Origin: an uncultured Methanosarcinaceae archaeon
GTDB lineage: Archaea; Halobacteriota; Methanosarcinia; Methanosarcinales; Methanosarcinaceae
Direction of reading: 5' to 3'
Assembly (NCBI GenBank): GCA_963721455.1
Contig: CAVRJG010000021.1
Span: 252-64,251, forward strand
Length of the DNA stretch: 64,000 bases
Shown: positions 34,955 through 49,721 of the stretch, one piece after another
How the letters are laid out: every line of letters begins with the position of its first letter
Numbering within the stretch: position 1 is the first letter of the stretch
Position numbers and translations under genes: made by a program
The notes under the pieces: generated by a model
Databases searched by the model: none
Seen by the model: the letters and a program-made list of their open reading frames with translations, nothing else
Told to the model about the DNA's origin: nothing

Positions 34955-35026
34955 GCGACTGTGGTTTAGTGGCTATGACCTGAGCTTCCCAAGCTTAGAA
35001 CCCGGGTTCGAATCCCGGCAGTCGCA
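34955..35026 (+). tRNA. tRNA-Gly (CCC)
   Basis: GCGACTG/CAGTCGC acceptor, TGAGC-TTCCCAA-GCTTA anticodon arm, CCGGG-TTCGAAT-CCCGG T arm; TTTATA box upstream. Confidence 0.97.
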
Positions 35027-40543: not shown

Positions 40544-41084
40544 ATCTTTTCCCGCCTCATCCCTATCCAGAATTCCCCCCCCGAAAGCAACTTTGCTACT
40601 CTTTTCTCACTAATAAATGCTACTACAGGCTTTTATTCTTAAAAAAGCAACCATAGCCCATTATCTTACTCTTATCTCTGGTAAGAGTGGCTTTTTTACT
40701 ATTTATTAGATTACTTTAATCGCATTAAAATTAATTCTTATTAATAAAATTGTCTTTCTCTCCTGTCTTCTCAGGCAAATACCCGAATGTACTTGCAGTT
40801 ATTCCAGAACTTAATATTCGTTTTTTGAATCTCGTCTCTGGAATTATAAGTCGAATTTCAGGCCATAGAGCAATCCTGAGGGCTCTTTAGATTAAGTCTT
40901 AAATGGGTTTTGGCATAAGTTTCTTATTAAAAAGTATTACTTTCATATGAAATAGTACGTATAATAATATTTATCTGAAATGCGTTTATATAATATATAT
41001 TATATAATATATTCTTTTCATTAACTATTGTTTCGTATTTATATTTCCATATCTATTATATTCTTCGAGTATAATCTTCTGTTG

Positions 41085-41280
41085 GTAAATACAATTTGTT
41101 GGTGCAACCTGAGATCATTTTCGTCGGAATATAATTTTTCAGCACGTAAATGGGGGTAAAATTTGCCAGTGATACATCTTCCGGAAATAATACGGATGAT
41201 TAACTGGTAAAATCATATTTTACGTGCTGTATCTGCCGATGGAAATAGTCGAAAAGCCAACATTCTTAAAATCGTATCAA
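41085..41280 (+). promoter_or_regulatory. structured 5' leader of peptide gene A
   Basis: Follows CCATATCTATTATA box; nested stems TGTTGG/CCAACA, ATTTTCGTCGG/CCGATGGAAAT, CAGCACGTAAA/TTTACGTGCTG, TTTGCCAGT/ACTGGTAAA. Confidence 0.6.
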
Positions 41281-41298
41281 ATCGAGGAGTGTATACAA

Positions 41299-41628
41299 AT
41301 GGGAATATTTAGAAAGACAATGAGCATTTTAGTAATGGTATGTTTCGTACTGTCACTGACAGCTGCGTCAGCAAGTGCATGGAATGGTGGCTGTGGGAAC
41401 GACTGTAACTGGGGCTGTGGGAACGACTGTAACTGGGGCTGTGGGAACAACTGTAACTGGGGCTGTGGGAACAACTGTAACTGGGGCTGTGGGAACGACT
41501 GTAATTGGGGCTGTGGGAACGACTGTAACTGGGGCTGTGGGAACGACTGTAACCGGGGCTGTGGGAACGGCTTTGGGTTCTTTGGGTTCAGCTTCTTTAA
41601 CTCTTTTGGGTTGGGCTGCTGTTGCTAA
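41299..41628 (+). CDS. secreted Cys-rich repeat peptide A, (GCGNDCNW)x7
   Basis: GAGGAG RBS; signal MGIFRKTMSILVMVCFVLSLTAASASA; 24-bp repeats; ends GCCC. Confidence 0.85.
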   Translation: MGIFRKTMSILVMVCFVLSLTAASASAWNGGCGNDCNWGCGNDCNWGCGNNCNWGCGNNCNWGCGNDCNWGCGNDCNWGCGNDCNRGCGNGFGFFGFSFFNSFGLGCCC

Positions 41629-41657
41629 CGACTAAACCAGTTTAAATATAACCGAAT

Positions 41658-41908
41658 GACGACCCGTTCGTACAGCCTTACATAGGATTGCAGGGGGAGT
41701 AAGCCCCTCAACCTCTCAAAATAAATATATTGAAAAATATTCAATAGGATTTACGCGCTTGAGGAGTGAAAAAAGCATGAGCACATCTGCGACAAATCTC
41801 ATGAATTATAAAAGTTTGAAGTCTCATGCGACTGGTTTTTTAGTTAAACTGCGTAAATCCTTTCCTTTTACTGGTCTGCAATCATCGAAGCGGGCTTACG
41901 AATGAGTC
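41658..41908 (+). other. long foldback 3' element after peptide gene A
   Basis: GACCCGTTCGTA/TACGAATGAGTC, GATTGCAG/CTGCAATC, AGGATTTACGC/GCGTAAATCCT nested stems. Confidence 0.6.
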
Positions 41909-41987
41909 TTATTTAATATTTTTTATAATTATGTAATCTGGAGAATAAAGCTCCATTTTCTATCTGCCTTTCTTATGCATCATATTT

Positions 41988-42989
41988 TTATATAGGAGAC
42001 TGATCCAGAAACTCGATTGCCTTGCTTATAAGGTATTCCCTGTGTGCGGATCTCTTTTCTCGCCAGGCGACTCTGAGCAAGCCGTAGCTCATATAAAGTG
42101 GAAGAACCCGCTTTATCCGGCGATATTCCTTTTCGTCTCTGCTGTAATTGTGGAGAAATCGCTTGATATGATAGAAGGAGGCATATGCCATACCTTTTCG
42201 TGCGAAATGATGGAATACTTCAGCGCACATTATCCCCAGGTCGTTCGCAGCATTCCCGTGCTCTGTGGAGAGCTCCAGGTCTATTGCATAGGTTTTGCCC
42301 CTGTAAAAGAGGTAATTTGCAGGAGTCGCATCACGGTGTATTGTACATCCCTGGTTTTCGTCCAGAAAGGGGCTTTTCTGCCATCCTTCAAGTTTTTGTT
42401 CATATATTTTTCTGGTCGAACTGCGGAGTGGCATATACTGCAGGTTACTGCGGATCTTTTCAAAATCCTTATCTTTATCGTAGTAGCTCTTTGTAGCCCG
42501 ATGAAGTTTGCTCAGCAGGCAGGCTATTGCTTCTAGCTTTTCATCCAGGTTCTTTTCGTTTTTCAGGTACCAGGAAAAAGGTTTTCCAGGGATGTATTCG
42601 GTCACAAGGACGCAGTTAAAATGGCTGCTCAGGTCAATAGGTTCAGGGACATGGATTATTTTTTCAAGCCTCTTTAATTTATAATATTCATTCAGCATGG
42701 CTTCTCTAGCATCGTACTTTTTTATTTTCCCTGTGGGTTGTGCTAAAAATTTCGCCATAACACTGAGCCCTTCTCCCTCAAACTCATATCTATATACTAT
42801 GTGGGATGCCGGTCTTACTCTGAATTCCCTGACACTGCAATTTTCGTTTTTTATCCTGCGCCCCAGAGCGTGGACTATCCAGTGTCTGAATGGATCTCCC
42901 GGCTTGAGTTTTCTAACATACTCCTGTGAAATACAGAACCCCCATTTATTCGAAATCGGAGATTGATATCTTTTCCCATCTAAGATCAA
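41988..42989 (-). CDS. APH / choline-kinase-like phosphotransferase (start uncertain)
   Basis: MAKF (VAIK-like), NEYYKL, VTEYIPG, HRDATPANY (HxDxxxxN), IDLE, DLG. Confidence 0.85.
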   Translation of the reverse strand: MILDGKRYQSPISNKWGFCISQEYVRKLKPGDPFRHWIVHALGRRIKNENCSVREFRVRPASHIVYRYEFEGEGLSVMAKFLAQPTGKIKKYDAREAMLNEYYKLKRLEKIIHVPEPIDLSSHFNCVLVTEYIPGKPFSWYLKNEKNLDEKLEAIACLLSKLHRATKSYYDKDKDFEKIRSNLQYMPLRSSTRKIYEQKLEGWQKSPFLDENQGCTIHRDATPANYLFYRGKTYAIDLELSTEHGNAANDLGIMCAEVFHHFARKGMAYASFYHIKRFLHNYSRDEKEYRRIKRVLPLYMSYGLLRVAWREKRSAHREYLISKAIEFLDQSPI

Positions 42990-43331
42990 GGTATTGGAAA
43001 CCCTTGACAGGCAGCGGAATATTCAATCTTCCTTTCCATACCAATCTGAGCGGCGGGATATAAAAGCACTGGATATTTCCTTAACTCTCTAAATTTATAG
43101 CAGTTATTTTTGAATTATATACAGGATCGCGTGACCATGAAAGTCTCAAAAAAGATGTGAGGAGAACTGAAAGCTAAGAATGGATCAGAGGCTTATCATT
43201 CATGCAAAAACCTCTGGGTAAGATAGAAAGTTAATATGGATTTATTATGGACAGGATTCGATGTCTTTTAGGTTTATCTTATGAAAACGGTTTTCAGGTT
43301 TACCCTAAAAGTTACCACAGTTATAATTAAT

Positions 43332-43505
43332 ATGGATAGTTGTTGCCCTGAATCGGGCAGTTCATTCGATAGTGAAATGGAATTTAAGAACGAGACAATT
43401 AACTGTTCATCCTACCAAAAAAAGCCGATTGGCACTGGTTTTTATGTGGTGGATTTTTTTGGAGCACACATTAAAGTGGGCCTTTTTTCTGGTGAAATTA
43501 ATTAA
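43332..43505 (+). CDS. putative 57-aa sORF (copy 1)
   Basis: MDSCCPESGSS...GAHIKVGLFSGEIN; open with the same start and stop in all three units. Confidence 0.35.
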   Translation: MDSCCPESGSSFDSEMEFKNETINCSSYQKKPIGTGFYVVDFFGAHIKVGLFSGEIN

Positions 43506-43721
43506 ATGAGTAAACATGGAAATGAATTCTAAGATGAAAACTTAAATTGCAATCTATATTAAATTAAAGAAAAGACTACACTTTTGATGAAGGCATGTTG
43601 TGATAAATACTACTTTGAGAAGACATCTCCAGAAACAGGGCTAGATAATGTCAATTTTTCTTTAATATTGGTTTCTGATTTTTATTTCTATCTATATTAT
43701 ATTATCTGGCGAATAATCACC

Positions 43722-43925
43722 TACTGATACGATTTGGGGGTCACTGTCATCGGCATATAAATCCTCAACACACAAAATGAGGATATGGGAGTAAGATTTT
43801 ACCAGTACTATGCTTTTCCAGGATAGATCTGGATGACTGATTGGTAAAATAAAATTAAAAATAAAATTATTCAGTAATTTGCCGATGAAAAATTGACTTA
43901 ATAATTAACCTTAGATTGTATCAGA
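43722..43925 (+). promoter_or_regulatory. structured 5' leader of peptide gene B
   Basis: CTGATACGATTTGGGG/CCTTAGATTGTATCAG, TCATCGGCA/TGCCGATGA, TTTTACCAGT/ATTGGTAAAA, TCCAG/CTGGA stems. Confidence 0.65.
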
Positions 43926-43980
43926 TGAATAAAAACTTAAATTGTATCATATTAAGCAAAAAAATCTGGAGTGTAGGTAT

Positions 43981-45005
43981 ATGGGGAAATTTGGAATAAA
44001 AAAGACACTGAGCATTTTCATGCTAGTGCTTTTCATAGCTTCGGTAACAGCCGCTTCAGTAAGCGCATGTAATTCCGCAGACTGCAAGCATAAAGAAGTC
44101 AAGAAAGAAGTCTGCAAGGGTGATGTCTGCAAGAATGTCAATAAGAATGTCAATGTCATACTAAACAGGGTCGTAGACAGAGACAAAGTCATTGACAGAG
44201 ATATAGACTTTGACAGAGACAGAGTCATGGACAAAGACAGAGTCATGGACAGAGTTGAGGACAGAGTTGAGGACAGAGACAAAGTCATGGACAGAGACAG
44301 AGTCATGGACAGAGACAGAGTCATGGACAGAGACAGAGTCATGGACAGAGACAGAGTCATGGACAGAGTTGAGGACAGAGTTGAGGACAGAGACAAAGTC
44401 ATGGACAGAGACAGAGTCATGGACAGAGACAGAGTCATGGACAGAGACAGAGTCATGGACAGAGACAGAGTCATGGACAGAGACAGAGTCATGGACAGAG
44501 ACAGAGTCATGGACAGAGACAAAGTCATGGACTGAGACAAAGTCATGGACAGAGACAGAGTCATGGACAGAGACAGAGTCATGGACAGAGACAGAGTCAT
44601 GGACAGAGACAGAGTCATGGACAGAGACAGAGTCATGGACAGAGACAAAGTCATGGACAGCAAAGTCATGACCTACTGTAAAGAAGTCAAGAATAAAGAA
44701 ATCTGCAAGGGTGATGTCTGCAAGAATGTTAATAAGAATGTCAATGTCATAATAAACAGGGTCGTAGACAGAGACAAAGTCATTGACAGAGATATAGACT
44801 TTGACAGAGACAAAGTCATGGACAAATACTGATACGATTTGGGGTTCACTGTCATCGGCATATAAATCCTCGAATGTCAATGTCTAGTAAACAAGGTCGC
44901 GACAGAGACAAAGTCATTGACAGAGACAGGTGCTTTGACAAGGAAAGAGTCAGATGTGACAAGAAATAAGTCAATTTCTCTGACAAGGACCGCGGCTACT
45001 GCTGA
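43981..45005 (+). pseudogene. secreted repeat peptide B, (MDRDRV)n expanded; in-frame TGA at 44533 and rearranged 3' end
   Basis: Signal MGKFGIKKTLSIFMLVLFIASVTAASVSA; AGA>TGA in one repeat; frame continues to 44832; degenerate third domain copy ends DKDRGYC* at 45005. Confidence 0.75.
44210..44660 (+). repeat. 18-bp tandem repeat array (>20 units)
   Basis: GACAGAGACAGAGTCATG units with occasional GACAGAGTTGAG inserts. Confidence 0.95.
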
Positions 45006-45076
45006 CCGAGATTTTGGCAAAGACTAAACTGGCCTGGCTATAAGCCCTGGTTATATAATAATACAAGACGTATGGT

Positions 45077-45204
45077 GACTCGTTCGTACAAGTCCTGCGT
45101 CAGATTACAGGAGCAGAAGACCCCGATCCATATAAAATCTAAAAATTGGGGTTCTTCCCTCCTGATATTGACCTGCAATCAACAAAGTGGGTCTACGAAT
45201 ATGT
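45077..45204 (+). other. conserved foldback 3' element after peptide gene B
   Basis: GTTCGTA/TACGAAT, CAGGAG/CTCCTG, AAGACCCCGAT/ATTGGGGTTCTT. Confidence 0.6.
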
Positions 45205-45481
45205 TTTATTTACTGTTTTTTATGTGATCTGGAGACTAAAATTTGAATATTTCTGAAGCTTTACAAATTTCTAACTTTTCGGTTATACTTTTATCTATGG
45301 AAAAATGATGAGGTTCTCATTGTTCATTTCCACTTTATCCACTGCAGTTTTTACATCCGGAATACCAGGAAATTTTTTACTTGATCCTGTACATTCGGTA
45401 TAATCTTATTATCCTTAATGTCTCCTAAGATTGGCTTTATTTTCTTCCGTCTTCTATCTGCCTTTCTTATGCATCATATTT

Positions 45482-45970
45482 TTATATAGGAAACTGATCC
45501 AGAAATTCGATTGCCTGGCTTATAAGGTATTTTCTGTGAGTGGATTTCTTTTCTCGCCAGGCGACTCTGAGCAAGCCGTAGCTCATATAAAGTGGAAGAA
45601 CCCGCTTTATCCGGCGATATTCCTTTTCGTCTCTGCTGTAATTGTGGAGAAATCGCTTGATATGGGGGAAGGAGGCATATGCCATACCTCTCGTGCGAAA
45701 TGATAGAATACTTCAGCGCACATGATCCCCAGGTCATTTGCAGCATTCCCGTGCTCTGTGAAGAGCTCCAGGTCTATTGCATAGGTTTTTGCCCCTGTAA
45801 AAGAGGTAATTTGCAGGAGTAGCATCACGGTGTAATATGCAGCCCTCATTTTCGTCCAGTCCAGTTCCTGAATGAATTCCCTTGTTTAATTTCTAATATG
45901 CTCCTTTGAGCACAGAACCCCATTTATACAAAATCGGAAATTGATATCCTTCCCATCTCGATTAAGATAT
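45482..45970 (-). pseudogene. internally deleted copy of the APH-like kinase
   Basis: Retains 5' segment and HRDATPANY-to-C-terminus; about 510 bp missing at the TCCAGTCCAG junction (45855-45864). Confidence 0.85.
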
Positions 45971-46217: not shown

Positions 46218-46391
46218 ATGGATAGTTATTGCCCTGAATCCGGCAGTTCATTCGATAGTGGAATGGAATTTAAGAACGAGCCAATTAACTGTTCAGCCTG
46301 CCAAAACAAGCCTATTGACACTGTTTTTTATATGATGGATTTGCTTGGAGCACACATTAAAGTGGGCCTTTTTCCTGGTGAAATTAATTAA
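46218..46391 (+). CDS. putative 57-aa sORF (copy 2)
   Basis: MDSYCPESGSSFDSGMEFKNEPINCSACQNKP...GEIN*. Confidence 0.35.
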   Translation: MDSYCPESGSSFDSGMEFKNEPINCSACQNKPIDTVFYMMDLLGAHIKVGLFPGEIN

Positions 46392-46607
46392 ATGAGTAAA
46401 CCTGAAAATGAATTCTAAGATGGAAACTTAAATTGCAATTGATATAACCTTAAAGAAAAGACAACACTTTTGATAGGGGCATGTTGTGATAAATACTACT
46501 TTGAGAAGACATCTACAGAAACAGGGCTAGATAATGTCAATTCTTCTTTAATATTGGTTTCTGATTTTTATTTCCATATATATTATATTCTCTGGATAAT
46601 AATTACC

Positions 46608-46808
46608 TACTGATACGATTTGGGGGTCTTTCATCGGCTTATAATTCCTCAGCACACAAAATGAGGATATGGGGGTAAAATTTTACCAGTACTATGCTTT
46701 TTCAGGATAGATCTGGATGACGTGTTGGTAAAATAAAATTAAAAATAAAATTATTCAGTTATTTGCCGATGAAAAATTGACTTAAAAATTAACCTTAGAT
46801 TGTATCAG
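46608..46808 (+). promoter_or_regulatory. structured 5' leader of peptide gene C
   Basis: Same stems as the leaders of B and D. Confidence 0.6.
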
Positions 46809-46864
46809 ATAAATAAAAACTTAAATTGTATCATATTAAGCAAAAAAATCTGGAGTGTAGGTAT

Positions 46865-47321
46865 ATGGGAAAATTTGGAATAAAAAAGACACTGAGCATT
46901 TTCATGCTAGTGCTTTTCATAGCTTCGGTAACAGCCGCTTCAGTAAGCGCATGTAATTCCGCAGACTGCAAGCATAAGGATAAGGTCTGCAAGGGTGGTG
47001 TCTGCAAGAATGTCAATAAGAATGTCAATGTCATAATAAACAGGGTCGTAGACAGAGATATAGACGTTGACAGAGATATAGACGTTGACAGAGATATAGA
47101 CGTTGGAAGAGCCAGAGTCATGGGCAGAGCCAGAGTCATGGACAGAGTTGATGGACAGATTTGACAGATTTGACGGATTCGACAGATTCGACAGATTTGA
47201 CAGATTCGACGGATGCGGTGACAGAGGCTGTGGCGGAGGCTGTGGCGGAGGCAGAATCGGTTTCGTTGGAAAGTTCTTTGGTTGTGTTGATGTAAACCGC
47301 GGCTGTGGCTTTGGCTGCTGA
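46865..47321 (+). pseudogene. secreted peptide C, frameshift before the Cys/Gly tail
   Basis: Signal identical to B; GAGTTGATGGAC (+1 relative to the GAGTCATGGAC repeat) stops the frame at 47164; tail DRFD...GCGGGCGGG...NRGCGFGC* in the other frame to 47321. Confidence 0.75.
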
Positions 47322-47387
47322 CCGATTTTGTTAAAGACTAAACTGGCCTGGCTATAAAGCCTGGCTATAAAATACAAGATATATGTT

Positions 47388-47514
47388 GACTCGTTCTCAC
47401 AGTCCTGCGTCAGATTACAGGAGCAGAAGACCCCGATCCACATAAAATCTAAAAATTGGGGTTCTTCCCTCCTGATATTGACCTGCAATCAACAAAGTGG
47501 GTCTACGAATATGT
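47388..47514 (+). other. conserved foldback 3' element after peptide gene C
   Basis: Nearly identical to 45077-45204. Confidence 0.6.
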
Positions 47515-47790
47515 TTTATTTACTGTTTTTTATGTGATCTGGAGACTAAAATTTGAATATTTCTGAAGCTTTACAAATTTCTAACTTTTCGGTTATACTT
47601 TTATCTATGGAAAAATGATGAGGTTCTCATTGTTCATTTCCACTTTATCCACTGCAGTTTTTACATCCGGAATACCAGGAAATTTTTTACTTGATCCTGT
47701 ACATTCGGTATAATCTTATTATCCTTAATGTCTCCTAAGATTGGCTTTATTTTCTTCCGTCTTTTATCTGCCTTTTTATGCATCATATTT

Positions 47791-48280
47791 TTATATGGGA
47801 GACTGATCCAGAAATTCGATTACCTGGCTTATAAGGTATTTTCTGTGAGTGGATTTCTTTTCTCGCCAGGCGACTCTGAGCAAGCCCTAGCTCATATAAA
47901 GTGGAAGAACCCGCTTTATCCGGCGATATTCCTTCTCGTCTCTGCTGTAGTTGCGGAGAAATCGCTTGATATGGGGGAAGGAGGCATATACCATACCTTT
48001 TCGTGCGAAATGATAGAATACTTCAGCGCACATTGATCCCCAGGTCATTTGCAGCATTCCCGTGCTCTGTGAAGAGCTCCAGGTCTATTGCATAGGTTTT
48101 TGCCCCTGTAAAAGAGGTAATTTGCAGGAGTAGCATCACGGTGTAATATGCAGCCCTCATTTTCGTCCAGTCCAGTTCCTGAATGAATTCCCTTGTTTAA
48201 TTTCTAATATGCTCCTTTGAGCACAGAACCCCATTTATACAAAATCGGAAATTGATATCCTTCCCATCTCGATTAAGATA
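47791..48280 (-). pseudogene. second internally deleted copy of the APH-like kinase
   Basis: Same deletion junction; lies about 2310 bp from copy 1. Confidence 0.85.
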
Positions 48281-48528: not shown

Positions 48529-48702
48529 ATGGATAGTTATTGCCCTGAATCCGGCAGTTCATTCGATAGTGGAATGGAATTTAAGAACGAGCCAATTAAC
48601 TGTTCAGCCTGCCAAAACAAGCCAATGGGCACTGTTTTTTATATGATGGATTTGCTTGGAGCACACATTAAAGTGGGCCTTTTTCCTGGTGAAATTAATT
48701 AA
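48529..48702 (+). CDS. putative 57-aa sORF (copy 3)
   Basis: Open, nearly identical to copy 2. Confidence 0.35.
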   Translation: MDSYCPESGSSFDSGMEFKNEPINCSACQNKPMGTVFYMMDLLGAHIKVGLFPGEIN

Positions 48703-48920
48703 ATGAGTAAACCTGAAAATGAATTCTAAGATGGAAACTTAAATTGCAATCGATGTGAACCTTAAAGAAAAGACAACACTTTTGATGAGGATGTGTTGTG
48801 ATAAATACTACTTTGAGAAGACATCTCCAGAAACAGGGCTAGATAATGTCAATTTTTCTTTAATATTGGTTTCTGATTTTTATTTCCATATATATTATAT
48901 TCTCTGGAGAATAATCAACT

Positions 48921-49122
48921 ACTGATACGATTTGGGGGTCACTTTCATCGGCTTATAATTCCTCAGCACACAAAATGAGGATATGGGAGTAAAATTTTAC
49001 CAGTACTATGCTTTTCCAGGATAGATCTGGATGACGTGTTGGTAAAATAAAATTAAAAATAAAATTATTCAGTAATTTGCCGATGAAAAATTGACTTAAT
49101 AATTAACCTTAGATTGTATCAG
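48921..49122 (+). promoter_or_regulatory. structured 5' leader of peptide gene D
   Basis: CTGATACGATTTGGGG/CCTTAGATTGTATCAG (16 bp, 4 G-U), TTTCATCGGC/GCCGATGAAA, CCTCA/TGAGG, TTTTACCAGTAC/GTGTTGGTAAAA, TCCAG/CTGGA; TATA-like CCATATATATTATA upstream. Confidence 0.65.
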
Positions 49123-49177
49123 ATGAATAAAAACTTAAATTGTATCATATTAAGCAAAAAATCTGGAGTGTAGGTAT

Positions 49178-49528
49178 ATGGGAAAATTTGGAATAAAAAA
49201 GACACTGAGCATTTTCATGCTAGTGCTTTTCATAGCTTCGGTAACAGCCGCTTCAGTAAGCGCATGTAATTCCGCAGACTGCAAGCATAAAGAAGTCAAG
49301 AATATAGAAGTCTGCAAGGGTGATGCCTGCAAGAATGTCAATAAGAATGTCAATATCATAATAAACAGGGTCGTAGACAGAGACAGAGTCGTTGAAAGAG
49401 ATACAGTCATTGAAAGAGACAGAGTCATTGACAGATTCGACGGATGTGGCGGCTTTGGAGGTTGTGGCGGCTTTGGCGGCGGTTGTGGCTTTGGCTGCTT
49501 TAACCGCGGATGCGGCTTTGGCTGCTGA
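49178..49528 (+). CDS. secreted Cys/Gly-rich peptide D (116 aa, intact)
   Basis: GGAG RBS; shared signal; CNSADC..VCKGDAC, NVNKNVN, DR repeats, GCGGFGG tail ending GCGFGC. Confidence 0.85.
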   Translation: MGKFGIKKTLSIFMLVLFIASVTAASVSACNSADCKHKEVKNIEVCKGDACKNVNKNVNIIINRVVDRDRVVERDTVIERDRVIDRFDGCGGFGGCGGFGGGCGFGCFNRGCGFGC

Positions 49529-49595
49529 CCGATTTTGTTAAAGACTAAACTGGCCTGGCTATAAGCCTGGCTAATTAATACGTAAAAACGATGAC

Positions 49596-49721
49596 GACTC
49601 GTTCTACAGTCCTGCGTCAGATTACAGGAGCGAAAGGCCCTAATCCAATAAAACCTAAATATTGGAGGGTCTTTCCTCCTGATACTGATCGGCAACCTCA
49701 AAATGGGTCGGTGAATGAGCC
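49596..49721 (+). other. foldback 3' element after peptide gene D (compensatory variant)
   Basis: CTCGTTC/GAATGAG, CAGGAG/CTCCTG, GAAAGGCCCT/AGGGTCTTTC, CCAATA/TATTGG. Confidence 0.6.

What the first reader, a model, noticed from the sequence alone, without database searches (positions are those of the whole stretch)
43722..43925. Covarying ~200-nt structured 5' leader on all four peptide genes (candidate new cis-regulatory RNA)
Seen in sequence: about 25 nt after a TATA-like box each gene has nested stems. In D these are CTGATACGATTTGGGG/CCTTAGATTGTATCAG (16 bp; all 4 non-WC positions are G-U), TTTCATCGGC/GCCGATGAAA, TTTTACCAGTAC/GTGTTGGTAAAA and TCCAG/CTGGA. The divergent A leader (41085-41280) keeps the same architecture with different sequence: TGTTGG/CCAACA, ATTTTCGTCGG/CCGATGGAAAT, TTTGCCAGT/ACTGGTAAA, TCCG/CGGA, plus an extra CAGCACGTAAA/TTTACGTGCTG. 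Copies also sit at 46608-46808 and 48921-49122. Inference: G-U tolerance and compensation imply selection on RNA structure. In B, C and D the outer stem closes about 45 nt before the RBS; in A it closes almost at the RBS. This suggests a riboswitch-like, protein-binding or stabilising leader.
Basis: partly seen in the sequence, partly recalled or inferred. Interest (0 to 1): 0.75.

Follow-up and report, generated by a model that had tools for sequence, protein, structure and literature searches.

The report
Structured leader of Methanosarcina peptide genes
Four tandem genes for small secreted repeat peptides in a Methanosarcina genome each carry a roughly 200-260-base upstream stretch that folds into a long, conserved RNA hairpin; this is a previously uncatalogued but fairly ordinary kind of structured mRNA leader, and its function is untested.

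Summary
The stems are real and lie at the stated coordinates. Two arms quoted for copy D actually come from copies B and C. All four leaders fold far better than shuffled sequence on the sense strand (z about -5.5 to -6) and much less so on the antisense strand (z about -2.4 to -3).

B, C and D are recent tandem duplicates, so the window alone gives almost no covariation. I recovered 16 more leaders from 9 other Methanosarcina genomes and MAGs. With these, 7 of 64 pairs (D-type) and 13 of 65 pairs (A-type) show compensatory changes, above shuffle and slide controls. Wobble-type states outnumber A·C states 38:10.

There is no Rfam match. Metatranscriptome contigs run from inside the leader into the coding sequence. 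None covers the first 20-45 nt, which hold the 5' arm of the outer stem, whereas DNA contigs run straight through. The transcription start and the outer stem as RNA therefore remain unproven.

Best reading: a lineage-restricted, rod-like 5' UTR acting on mRNA stability, processing or translation, paired with a structured 3' region. It is probably not a riboswitch. It is a new family of a known kind, of moderate interest.

The parts
41054..41062 (+). TATTATATT TATA-like box of gene A. The same box lies at 43695-43703 (D), 46581-46589 (C) and 48893-48901 (B). It predicts a TSS about 41082-41085, 43720-43724 and 48920-48924.
   Evidence: The box is invariant in all subtypes from other genomes. 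The TSS is inferred from archaeal TATA-to-start spacing and was not measured.
41070..41076 (+). Second A/T-rich box TATAATC (AATAATC at 48910-48916 in B). It could drive a start near 41100 / 48939, downstream of the 5' arm of the outer stem.
   Evidence: Sequence. The furthest-upstream RNA contig ends, 41103/41104 and 48942, lie 27-31 nt after it. The box is weaker (GTTAAT) in A' leaders.
41080..41298 (+). Leader A. Helices: UUGGUA 41083-41088 / UAUCAA 41274-41279; UGUUGGU 41097-41103 / GCCAACA 41256-41262; AUUUUCGUCGG 41117-41127 / CCGAUGGAAAU 41236-41246; CAGCACGUAAA 41140-41150 / UUUACGUGCUG 41219-41229; UUUGCCAGU 41162-41170 / ACUGGUAAA 41203-41211; UCCG 41180-41183 / CGGA 41193-41196. SD GAGGAG at 41284-41289, ATG at 41299.
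43722..43980 (+). Leader D. Helices: H1 43724-43739 / 43909-43924 (16 bp, 4 G-U); GUCA 43740-43743 / UGAC 43894-43897; H2 UCAUCGGC 43747-43754 / GCCGAUGA 43881-43888; side hairpin AUCCUCA 43761-43767 / UGAGGAU 43778-43784; H3 43796-43806 / 43840-43850; H4 UCCAGG 43817-43822 / UCUGGA 43828-43833. Second AUUGUAUCA copy at 43941-43949, GGAG at 43968-43971, ATG at 43981.
46608..46864 (+). Leader C, same architecture as D (93% identical).
48920..49177 (+). Leader B, same architecture as D (96% identical). RNA contigs start at 48942, 48963/48968 and 48976 and continue into the CDS.
41299..41628 (+). Peptide gene A: signal peptide followed by GCGN[DN]CNW repeats. The sister genes are D 43981- (broken), C 46865-47164 and B 49178-49528. 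No family match.
49529..49700 (+). Conserved structured 3' region after each peptide gene (also 41629-41790, 45018-45200, 47322-47505). It contains a long GC-rich hairpin, CAGGAGC...GCUCCUG-like, and is transcribed.
   Evidence: 4 compensatory pairs of 32; RNA contigs reach about 49686.
44827..44871 (+). 45-nt copy of the first 45 nt of the leader (= 43722-43766, 1 mismatch), embedded in the coding repeats of broken gene D.

Best explanation
Each peptide gene is transcribed with a long 5' untranslated leader: about 220 nt in the A type and about 260 nt in the B, C and D copies. The leader folds into one long imperfect hairpin. Its core is two sequence-conserved helices, UUUCAUCGG/CCGAUGAAA and UUUACCAGU/AUUGGUAAA, capped by a small apical stem. 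An outer helix starts at or within a few bases of the predicted first transcribed base, and its 3' arm (AUUGUAUCA) lies 5-45 nt before the ribosome-binding site.

I propose that the leader acts in cis on the fate of the mRNA. A fully paired 5' end and an internal hairpin would protect a very abundant message from 5'-end-dependent decay. Cutting in the A/U-rich internal loop would give the shorter 5' ends seen in RNA. The outer helix would set how exposed the ribosome-binding region is.

Shown: the fold, its conservation and sense-strand bias, moderate covariation, and co-transcription of the distal two thirds or more with the coding sequence. Inferred: the transcription start, RNA processing, and any effect on stability or translation.
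For: Fold statistics. z is -5.95 and -5.56 on the sense strand against -2.97 and -2.37 on the antisense strand. The same holds in leaders only about 64-65% identical: L008 z = -5.08 sense against -1.98 antisense, and L009 z = -4.48. The sense strand is the more stable in 14 of 15 leaders.

Family. I found 20 leaders in 10 genomes or MAGs, in subtypes A, A', D and G, always upstream of signal-peptide repeat genes.

Covariation.
- D-type, CM alignment of 10 sequences: 92.4% of cells paired; 7 of 64 pairs changed on both sides (shuffle mean 2.7, 1 of 500 reach it; slid controls 0-3).
- A-type, 9 sequences: 94.3% paired; 13 of 65 pairs (shuffle mean 4.8, 0 of 500; slid controls 1-4).
- Examples: top pair of the outer stem GC -> GU -> AU; side hairpin AU -> GC at two pairs.

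Strand-specific wobble.
- G-U states against A·C states are 38:10 in the predicted helices.
- They are 17:3 in mismatches of Watson-Crick-only folds.
- Base composition predicts parity.

Transcription. RNA contigs from at least 9 metatranscriptomes are colinear from leader to CDS at depths up to several hundred. None lies upstream of the predicted start. DNA contigs cross the promoter and the leader.

Constraint. At larger distances the leader is more conserved than 4-fold sites of the neighbouring kinase gene: 0.77-0.85 against 0.64 for L003, and 0.64 against 0.50-0.54 for L008 and L009.

Context. A structured, covarying 3' region follows the same genes.

Precedent. In the related Methanolobus psychrophilus, long 5' UTRs are cut at A/U-rich single-stranded sites, which stabilises mRNAs and activates translation. 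M. mazei UTRs average 150-200 nt (PMC5499594).
Against: No RNA contig covers the 5' arm of the outer stem. The furthest ends are 48942 (B) and 41103/41104 (A).

A search for RNA runs holding 48906-48972 found none, but it was weak, with only 3 sampled words.

Against close relatives the leader is no more conserved than synonymous sites: 0.78-0.85 against 0.80-0.84.

With plain MAFFT alignments the double-change count is not above the shuffles: 3 of 51 pairs, with 282 of 500 shuffles reaching it. The stronger counts come from alignments fitted to the structure.

About as many substitutions break pairs as keep them in the D-type (per-pair tables).

Contig ends are poor proxies for RNA ends. No function was tested.
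Confidence: 0.55

Rival explanations
1. Only the inner part is RNA structure. Transcription would start about 20 nt further downstream (near 41100 / 48939), driven by the second A/T-rich box. The 5' arm of the outer stem would then be promoter-proximal DNA. The repeated motif TTGRTAYAATT (5', up to 4 tandem copies) and its inverse AATTGTATCA (3', 1-2 copies) would be binding sites for a DNA-binding regulator, or leftovers of an inverted duplication.
For: The three furthest-upstream RNA contig ends (41103 and 41104 in two unrelated runs, 48942 in a third) fall at homologous positions, just after the outer 5' arm and 27-31 nt after TATAATC/AATAATC.

The 5' motif is tandemly repeated 4 times with a 13-nt period directly after the TATA box in A' leaders.

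ATTGTATCA occurs twice in direct orientation in B, C and D, and nowhere else in the window. It is also kept in the otherwise rearranged G-type leader.
Against: All 4 non-Watson-Crick positions of the 16-bp outer stem are G-U on the sense strand.

Changes between genomes in this stem are mostly wobble-compatible and include GC -> GU -> AU. The G-type keeps 14 bp with 5 compatible changes (read).

The first box, TATTATATT, is invariant in every subtype, while the second is degenerate in A'.

The outer helix begins within 0-3 nt of the start predicted from the first box in A, A', D and G.
Confidence: 0.2
2. A riboswitch-like or protein- or sRNA-responsive switch. Alternative pairing between the repeated 5' UUGGUAYAAUU units, the 3' AAUUGUAUCA units and the ribosome-binding region would turn translation or processing on and off in response to a signal.
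For: There are several copies of mutually complementary motifs, which offers alternative registers.

In A-type leaders an extra 5' segment (CUCCU) can pair with the Shine-Dalgarno AGGAG. In D-type leaders CCUAC can pair with GUAGG next to it.

A purine-rich junction, AUGGGRGUAA, is conserved and unpaired.
Against: The anti-SD segments lie at or just upstream of the predicted start, so they may not be in the RNA.

There is no multi-helix junction or conserved pocket. Side elements differ between subtypes: CAGCACGUAAA helix in A, CCUCA hairpin in D, neither in A'.

The conserved junction is altered in A'. There is no Rfam aptamer hit even at E<=10. The downstream genes give no hint of a ligand.
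Confidence: 0.12
3. No selected function. The hairpin would be a by-product of an old inverted duplication or a MITE-like insertion, carried along by repeated tandem duplication and recombination of these fast-evolving loci.
For: The loci are recombination-prone: there are tandem units, a mosaic gene D with a leader fragment inside it, and a composite G-type leader.

Against close relatives the leader diverges about as fast as synonymous sites.

Many pair-breaking substitutions are tolerated.
Against: The stable fold is retained at about 35% divergence, with z about -5 on the sense strand only.

Compensatory changes exceed the controls, and there is a sense-strand wobble bias.

The element is found only as a leader of this gene family, at a fixed distance from the TATA box and the SD. 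It has no dispersed copies and no target-site duplications.
Confidence: 0.1

Closest known systems
Processed long 5' UTRs of Methanosarcinales mRNAs (Methanolobus psychrophilus rpsO, rps17e, cpn60; Qi et al. 2017, PMC5499594)
   Same: - Same order of archaea.
- Leaders of 100-200+ nt with predicted stem-loops.
- In that work, processing occurs at A/U-rich single-stranded sites and yields more abundant, more stable and better translated isoforms.
- Here, several RNA contig ends fall in or next to the A/U-rich internal loop UAUAAU: 41126/41131 and 48963-48968.
   Different: - There is no sequence relationship, and the genes are different (orphan secreted peptides rather than ribosomal or chaperone genes).
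- Processing here is only inferred from assembled contig ends. No 5'-P mapping exists.
- The present leader is a single long rod with an outer helix spanning about 200 nt.
5' stabiliser stem-loops of abundant envelope or secreted-protein mRNAs (E. coli ompA leader; Lactobacillus slpA S-layer 5' UTR). Recalled from my own knowledge, not checked here.
   Same: - A long leader on a highly expressed exported-protein gene.
- A helix that starts at the very 5' end.
- The proposed role is protection against 5'-end-dependent decay.
   Different: - Those are bacterial, much shorter elements, and their function has been shown experimentally.
- Here the organism is an archaeon (candidate nucleases are RNase J or aCPSF-type), and neither the 5' end nor the half-life has been measured.
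Riboswitches and other Rfam cis-regulatory leaders
   Same: Position (5' UTR), conserved fold, and possible occlusion of the ribosome-binding region.
   Different: - No match to any of the 4227 Rfam 15 models, at gathering score or at E<=10.
- Rod-like shape.
- No conserved junction pocket.
- Modules are swapped between subtypes.
MITE-like elements or long inverted repeats
   Same: About 200 nt, A/T-rich, with 16-nt terminal inverted repeats.
   Different: - The mismatches are all G-T on one strand.
- The element has a fixed position relative to the TATA box and the SD.
- It is found only with this gene family and has no dispersed copies in 64 kb or in the fetched loci.

Membership tests
Any Rfam 15 family | Covariance-model score at or above the family's gathering threshold | tested here: not met
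   the only hit in the window is a tRNA at 34955. One search (E<=10 over 40900-44100) returned only chance-level hits of 10-20 bits against thresholds of 40-96.
Conserved structured cis-acting 5' leader (generic class) | Lies between the promoter and the start codon and is transcribed together with the gene | tested here: met
   RNA contigs are colinear from 48942 / 41103 into the CDS in several metatranscriptomes. The first 20-45 nt are not covered.
Conserved structured cis-acting 5' leader (generic class) | Fold more stable than chance, and specific to the transcribed strand | tested here: met
   z is -4.5 to -6 on the sense strand against -2 to -3 on the antisense strand.
Conserved structured cis-acting 5' leader (generic class) | Base pairs maintained by compensatory substitutions across homologues | tested here: inconclusive
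   7 of 64 and 13 of 65 pairs are compensatory, above shuffles and slid controls, on CM-fitted alignments. The count is not above shuffles on a MAFFT alignment. R-scape was not available.
Conserved structured cis-acting 5' leader (generic class) | Effect on expression of the downstream gene | not testable with these tools
   Needs reporter fusions or half-life measurements.
Metabolite riboswitch | Conserved multi-helix junction or pocket with invariant unpaired nucleotides, plus an expression platform | tested here: not met
   The shape is a rod-like hairpin. Side helices differ between the A, A', D and G subtypes, and the AUGGGRGUAA junction is not kept in A'.
Processed 5' UTR (Methanolobus type, PMC5499594) | 5'-monophosphate ends at defined A/U-rich single-stranded sites, with the processed isoform more abundant | tested here: inconclusive
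   Contig ends cluster at 41126/41131, 41151/41153, 48963/48968 and 48976, with much higher depth downstream. The phosphorylation state of the ends is unknown, and assembled contigs are imprecise.
MITE / transposon remnant | Dispersed copies with target-site duplications, independent of gene context | tested here: not met
   All copies are leaders of the same gene family. The pattern, HMM and CM searches found none elsewhere.
Bulge-helix-bulge splice or processing motif; K-turn (L7Ae site) | Two 3-nt bulges on opposite strands around a 4-bp helix; or tandem sheared G·A pairs next to a 3-nt bulge | tested here: not met
   By inspection of the folds. GUCA/UGAC is flanked by a 3x5 internal loop and an 11-nt bulge on one strand. 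No GA/GA arrangement lies beside H4.

The most novel reading that the evidence does not exclude
The leader is a genuine regulatory switch. The repeated 5' units (UUGGUAYAAUU, 1-4 copies) and 3' units (AAUUGUAUCA, 1-2 copies) would pair in alternative registers, under control of a protein, a small RNA or a cleavage event. That choice would decide whether the ribosome-binding region of a whole family of secreted repeat peptides is exposed. If so, it would be one of very few archaeal cis-regulatory RNA families. A further speculative extra: the 45-nt leader fragment inside gene D, whose edges match the predicted start and an RNA 5' boundary, could record an RNA-derived insertion.
Probability: 0.12. 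Interest if true: 0.75.

Novelty: new member of a known kind. Interest (0 to 1): 0.45.

Why it matters
Few conserved cis-acting RNA structures are known in archaea, and none is catalogued for this element.

If the fold controls stability, processing or translation, it would give three things:
- a compact, testable example of post-transcriptional control in Methanosarcina, which is genetically tractable;
- a possible expression or stability module for methanogen engineering;
- a handle on an abundant but entirely uncharacterised family of secreted, hypervariable repeat peptides that are strongly expressed in sediment and bioreactor metatranscriptomes.

If it proves inert, it still documents how tandem duplication spreads a promoter-leader cassette.

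Tried and rejected
- **Internal promoter at the conserved UAUAAU box** (41128-41135, 48952-48959). RNA contigs start only 4-9 nt after it in B, and other contigs span it. The box is absent in A' leaders. Rejected as the main promoter.
- **Upstream ORF starting at AUGGGRGUA** (41150, 43785). The frame and the stop are not conserved (1-nt indel in L001, 4 codons in L008, no AUG in L009), read. Rejected.
- **K-turn or box C/D-like GGAUGA...CUGA, and a BHB motif.** The geometry does not fit.
- **Rfam** at gathering score and at E<=10: nothing.
- **Metagenome pattern scan.** The only hit was a chance match in a bacterial gene, L004.
- **Peptide homologue search.** One hit only. Pfam and NCBIfam gave no family.
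- **Loci around more distant kinase homologues** (M. siciliae C2J L010, L011, L012, L007). No leader.
- **MAFFT alignment of all subtypes.** It misaligned the outer stem and the L013/L015 3' arms, so I used CM alignments, which are biased towards the structure.
- **My first dinucleotide-shuffle script** timed out.
- **Promoter-box search elsewhere in the window.** It gave only unrelated A/T-rich sites.

Full report
**What is in the window**

Between 41.0 and 49.7 kb there are four genes on the + strand for small proteins. Each has a signal peptide followed by short tandem repeats and a Cys/Gly-rich tail. They are A (ATG 41299), D (43981), C (46865) and B (49178).

B, C and D sit in tandem duplicated units of about 2.3-2.9 kb. 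Each unit also carries a small ORF and decaying copies of an APH/RIO-like kinase gene. The intact kinase gene is at 41988-42989 on the minus strand.

The peptides match no Pfam or NCBIfam family. A protein search found only one relative.

**Checking the observation**

Two arms attributed to D (TTTCATCGGC and GTGTTGGTAAAA) occur only in B and C. D has CTGTCATCGGC and CTGATTGGTAAAA instead.

The 16-bp outer stem of D (43724-43739 with 43909-43924) has exactly four non-Watson-Crick positions, and all are G-U.

| Leader | Sense MFE (kcal/mol) | Sense z | Antisense MFE | Antisense z |
|---|---|---|---|---|
| D | -60.0 | -5.95 | -44.2 | -2.97 |
| A | -57.4 | -5.56 | -42.1 | -2.37 |

No shuffle out of 200 folded as well as either sense strand. 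The fold is therefore real, well beyond chance, and biased to the strand of the genes.

What the window cannot show is covariation. B, C and D are 93-96% identical. Between A and D the common helices are mostly conserved sequence.

**Relatives elsewhere**

- A pattern built from blocks shared by A and D hit three other Methanosarcinaceae genomes. In metagenome contigs it hit only a chance bacterial match.
- Walking out from homologues of the neighbouring kinase gene and from one peptide homologue gave more syntenic loci.
- BLAST, HMM and CM searches then yielded 20 leaders in 10 genomes or MAGs.

| Subtype | Leaders found |
|---|---|
| A-type | 7 |
| A'-type | 2, about 64-65% identical to A (L008, and L009 = Methanosarcina sp. 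T3) |
| D-type | 10, one of them truncated |
| G-type | 1, composite (L008 gene 2) |

All precede signal-peptide repeat genes whose repeats are very different from each other. The M. siciliae C2J locus and three more distant loci have no leader, so the family is confined to a sub-clade of Methanosarcina. Rfam has nothing like it.

**Is the structure selected?**

1. *The stable, sense-biased fold persists at high divergence.* L008 gives -69.1 kcal/mol, z -5.08 on the sense strand, against -40.1 and z -1.98 on the antisense strand. L009 gives z -4.48. The sense strand is the more stable in 14 of 15 leaders.

2. *Covariation.*
   - On a CM alignment of 10 D-type leaders, 92.4% of cells pair. Seven of 64 pairs change on both sides (shuffle mean 2.7, 1 of 500 shuffles reach it; slid controls 0-3).
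   - On 9 A/A' leaders, 94.3% of cells pair. Thirteen of 65 pairs change on both sides (shuffle mean 4.8, 0 of 500; slid controls 1-4).
   - Clear cases are the top pair of the outer stem (GC, GU, AU) and two pairs of the small side hairpin (AU to GC).
   - The G-type keeps a 14-bp outer stem with five compatible changes. It replaces CAUCGGC/GCCGAUG by CAUAUGCAC/GUGCAUAUG.

3. *Wobble bias.* G-U states outnumber A·C states 38:10 in the helices. They do so 17:3 in symmetric mismatches of folds computed without G-U. Base composition predicts parity.

*Cautions.*
- The CM alignments are fitted to the structure.
- With a plain MAFFT alignment, double changes are not above shuffles.
- Pair-breaking substitutions are about as frequent as pair-keeping ones in the D-type.
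- Against the closest genomes the leader is no more conserved than 4-fold sites of the kinase gene (0.78-0.85 against 0.80-0.84). It is more conserved only at larger distances (0.77-0.85 against 0.64, and 0.64 against 0.50-0.54).

I read this as moderate, not decisive, support for selection on an RNA fold.

**Is it RNA, and where does the RNA begin?**

No pure-culture RNA run holds the locus, but many metatranscriptomes do. Their assembled contigs run without a break from inside the leader into the coding sequence, at depths of tens to hundreds.

| Type | Upstream contig ends | Runs |
|---|---|---|
| B-type | 48942 | X32, depth 70 |
| B-type | 48963 / 48968 | X2 |
| B-type | 48976 | X5, X14 |
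| A-type | 41103 / 41104 | X35 and X25 (unrelated runs) |
| A-type | 41126 / 41131 | X26 |
| A-type | 41151 / 41153 | X2, X28, X35 |

Nothing lies further upstream. DNA metagenome contigs, in contrast, pass straight through the promoter and the leader.

The leader is therefore transcribed with the gene, and no RNA comes from upstream of the predicted promoter. The first 20-45 nt, which hold the 5' arm of the outer stem, are not seen in RNA.

Two readings fit.
- **(a)** Transcription starts about 20 nt after the invariant TATTATATT box, at the first base of the outer stem. The shorter ends are then processing products or reverse-transcription stops. Several of them lie just 3' of a 5' arm, or in the A/U-rich loop UAUAAU. 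This would resemble the A/U-rich 5' UTR processing described in Methanolobus psychrophilus (PMC5499594).
- **(b)** Transcription starts near 41100 / 48939 from a second, weaker A/T-rich box. The outer 5' arm is then DNA only.

I favour (a), for three reasons. The outer stem shows sense-strand wobble and compatible evolution. The first box is the invariant one. The helix starts at the predicted +1 in all four subtypes. Only TSS mapping can settle the question.

**Mechanism**

The shape is a rod: two conserved core helices, an apical stem, and an outer closing helix. The side elements differ between subtypes:
- a CAGCACGUAAA helix in A;
- a CCUCA hairpin in D;
- neither in A';
- an added second AUUGUAUCA spacer only in the window and L003 lineage.

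That shape, the very high RNA abundance, and a conserved, covarying hairpin region after the stop codon all point the same way. A leader that governs mRNA stability, processing or ribosome access fits better than a metabolite aptamer.

Segments able to pair with the Shine-Dalgarno region exist. They lie at or just before the predicted start, so I do not rely on them.

**Verdict**

The element is a new, lineage-restricted family of a known kind (a structured 5' leader). Its exact 5' end is unproven and its function is unknown.

Noticed in passing
window 43981-45030, especially 44533-44535 and 44827-44871: Gene D is a broken mosaic. It has an in-frame TGA, a second partial copy of its N-terminal coding block (44679-44827 resembles 44088-44236), and a 45-nt copy of the leader's first 45 nt spliced between coding repeats. 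The left edge of the insert equals the predicted transcription start. The right edge (…AAATCCTC) equals the place where B-type RNA contigs begin.
   Followed up: partly
window 48976 (runs X5, X14): In two bioreactor metatranscriptomes a contig joins a coding repeat (GACAGATTT)x3 directly to TGAGG at 48976, the 3' arm of the small side hairpin. This is either another genomic rearrangement at the same hairpin or an RNA or assembly chimera.
   Followed up: no
window 41629-41790, 45018-45200, 47322-47505, 49529-49712: A conserved region follows each peptide gene. It contains a long GC-rich hairpin with compensatory changes (4 of 32 pairs) and is transcribed to about 49686. It may be a 3' UTR stabiliser or terminator structure paired with the 5' leader.
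   Followed up: partly
window 43281-43505, 46218-46391, 48529-48702: A small ORF of 57-74 aa (MDSYCPESGSSF…CSACQNKP…GAHIKVGLFPGEIN) is conserved just upstream of each D-type promoter. It is also called as a gene in L005 and L006. It has Cys pairs and no family hit, so it could be a real small protein.
   Followed up: no
window 45474-45850 and 47790-48160 (minus strand): Decaying copies of the APH/RIO-like kinase gene lie inside the duplicated units. The intact copy (41988-42989, minus strand) has weak similarity to the kinase domains of class III/IV lanthionine synthetases, which hints that the neighbouring peptides might be modified.
   Followed up: no
L008 15900-15965 and L009 13050-13115 (minus strand): A' leaders carry four tandem copies of a 13-nt unit, TTGTTGGTAYAAT, immediately after the TATA box. 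Each copy is complementary, with G-U pairs, to the single AAAATTGTATCAA before the ribosome-binding site.
   Followed up: partly
L008 13739-14125 (minus strand): A third-type ('G') leader sits in front of a Gly/Tyr/His-rich peptide gene. It has the same outer stem and a covarying H2, and it also contains a remnant of an A'-type leader with its central hairpin deleted. This suggests modular evolution by recombination.
   Followed up: partly
run X6 on window 48956 -> 49164; run X9 loose ends at 48916 / 48928: Environmental DNA contigs share the promoter region and then diverge into other leader variants, or skip 207 nt of the leader. More paralogous subtypes therefore exist in nature.
   Followed up: no
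window 41380-41570, 44165-44660, 47040-47230: The coding repeats are hypervariable between paralogues and species (24-nt GCGNDCNW units in A, 18-nt DRDRVM units in D, DRFD units in C), while the signal peptide and the leader are conserved.
   Followed up: no
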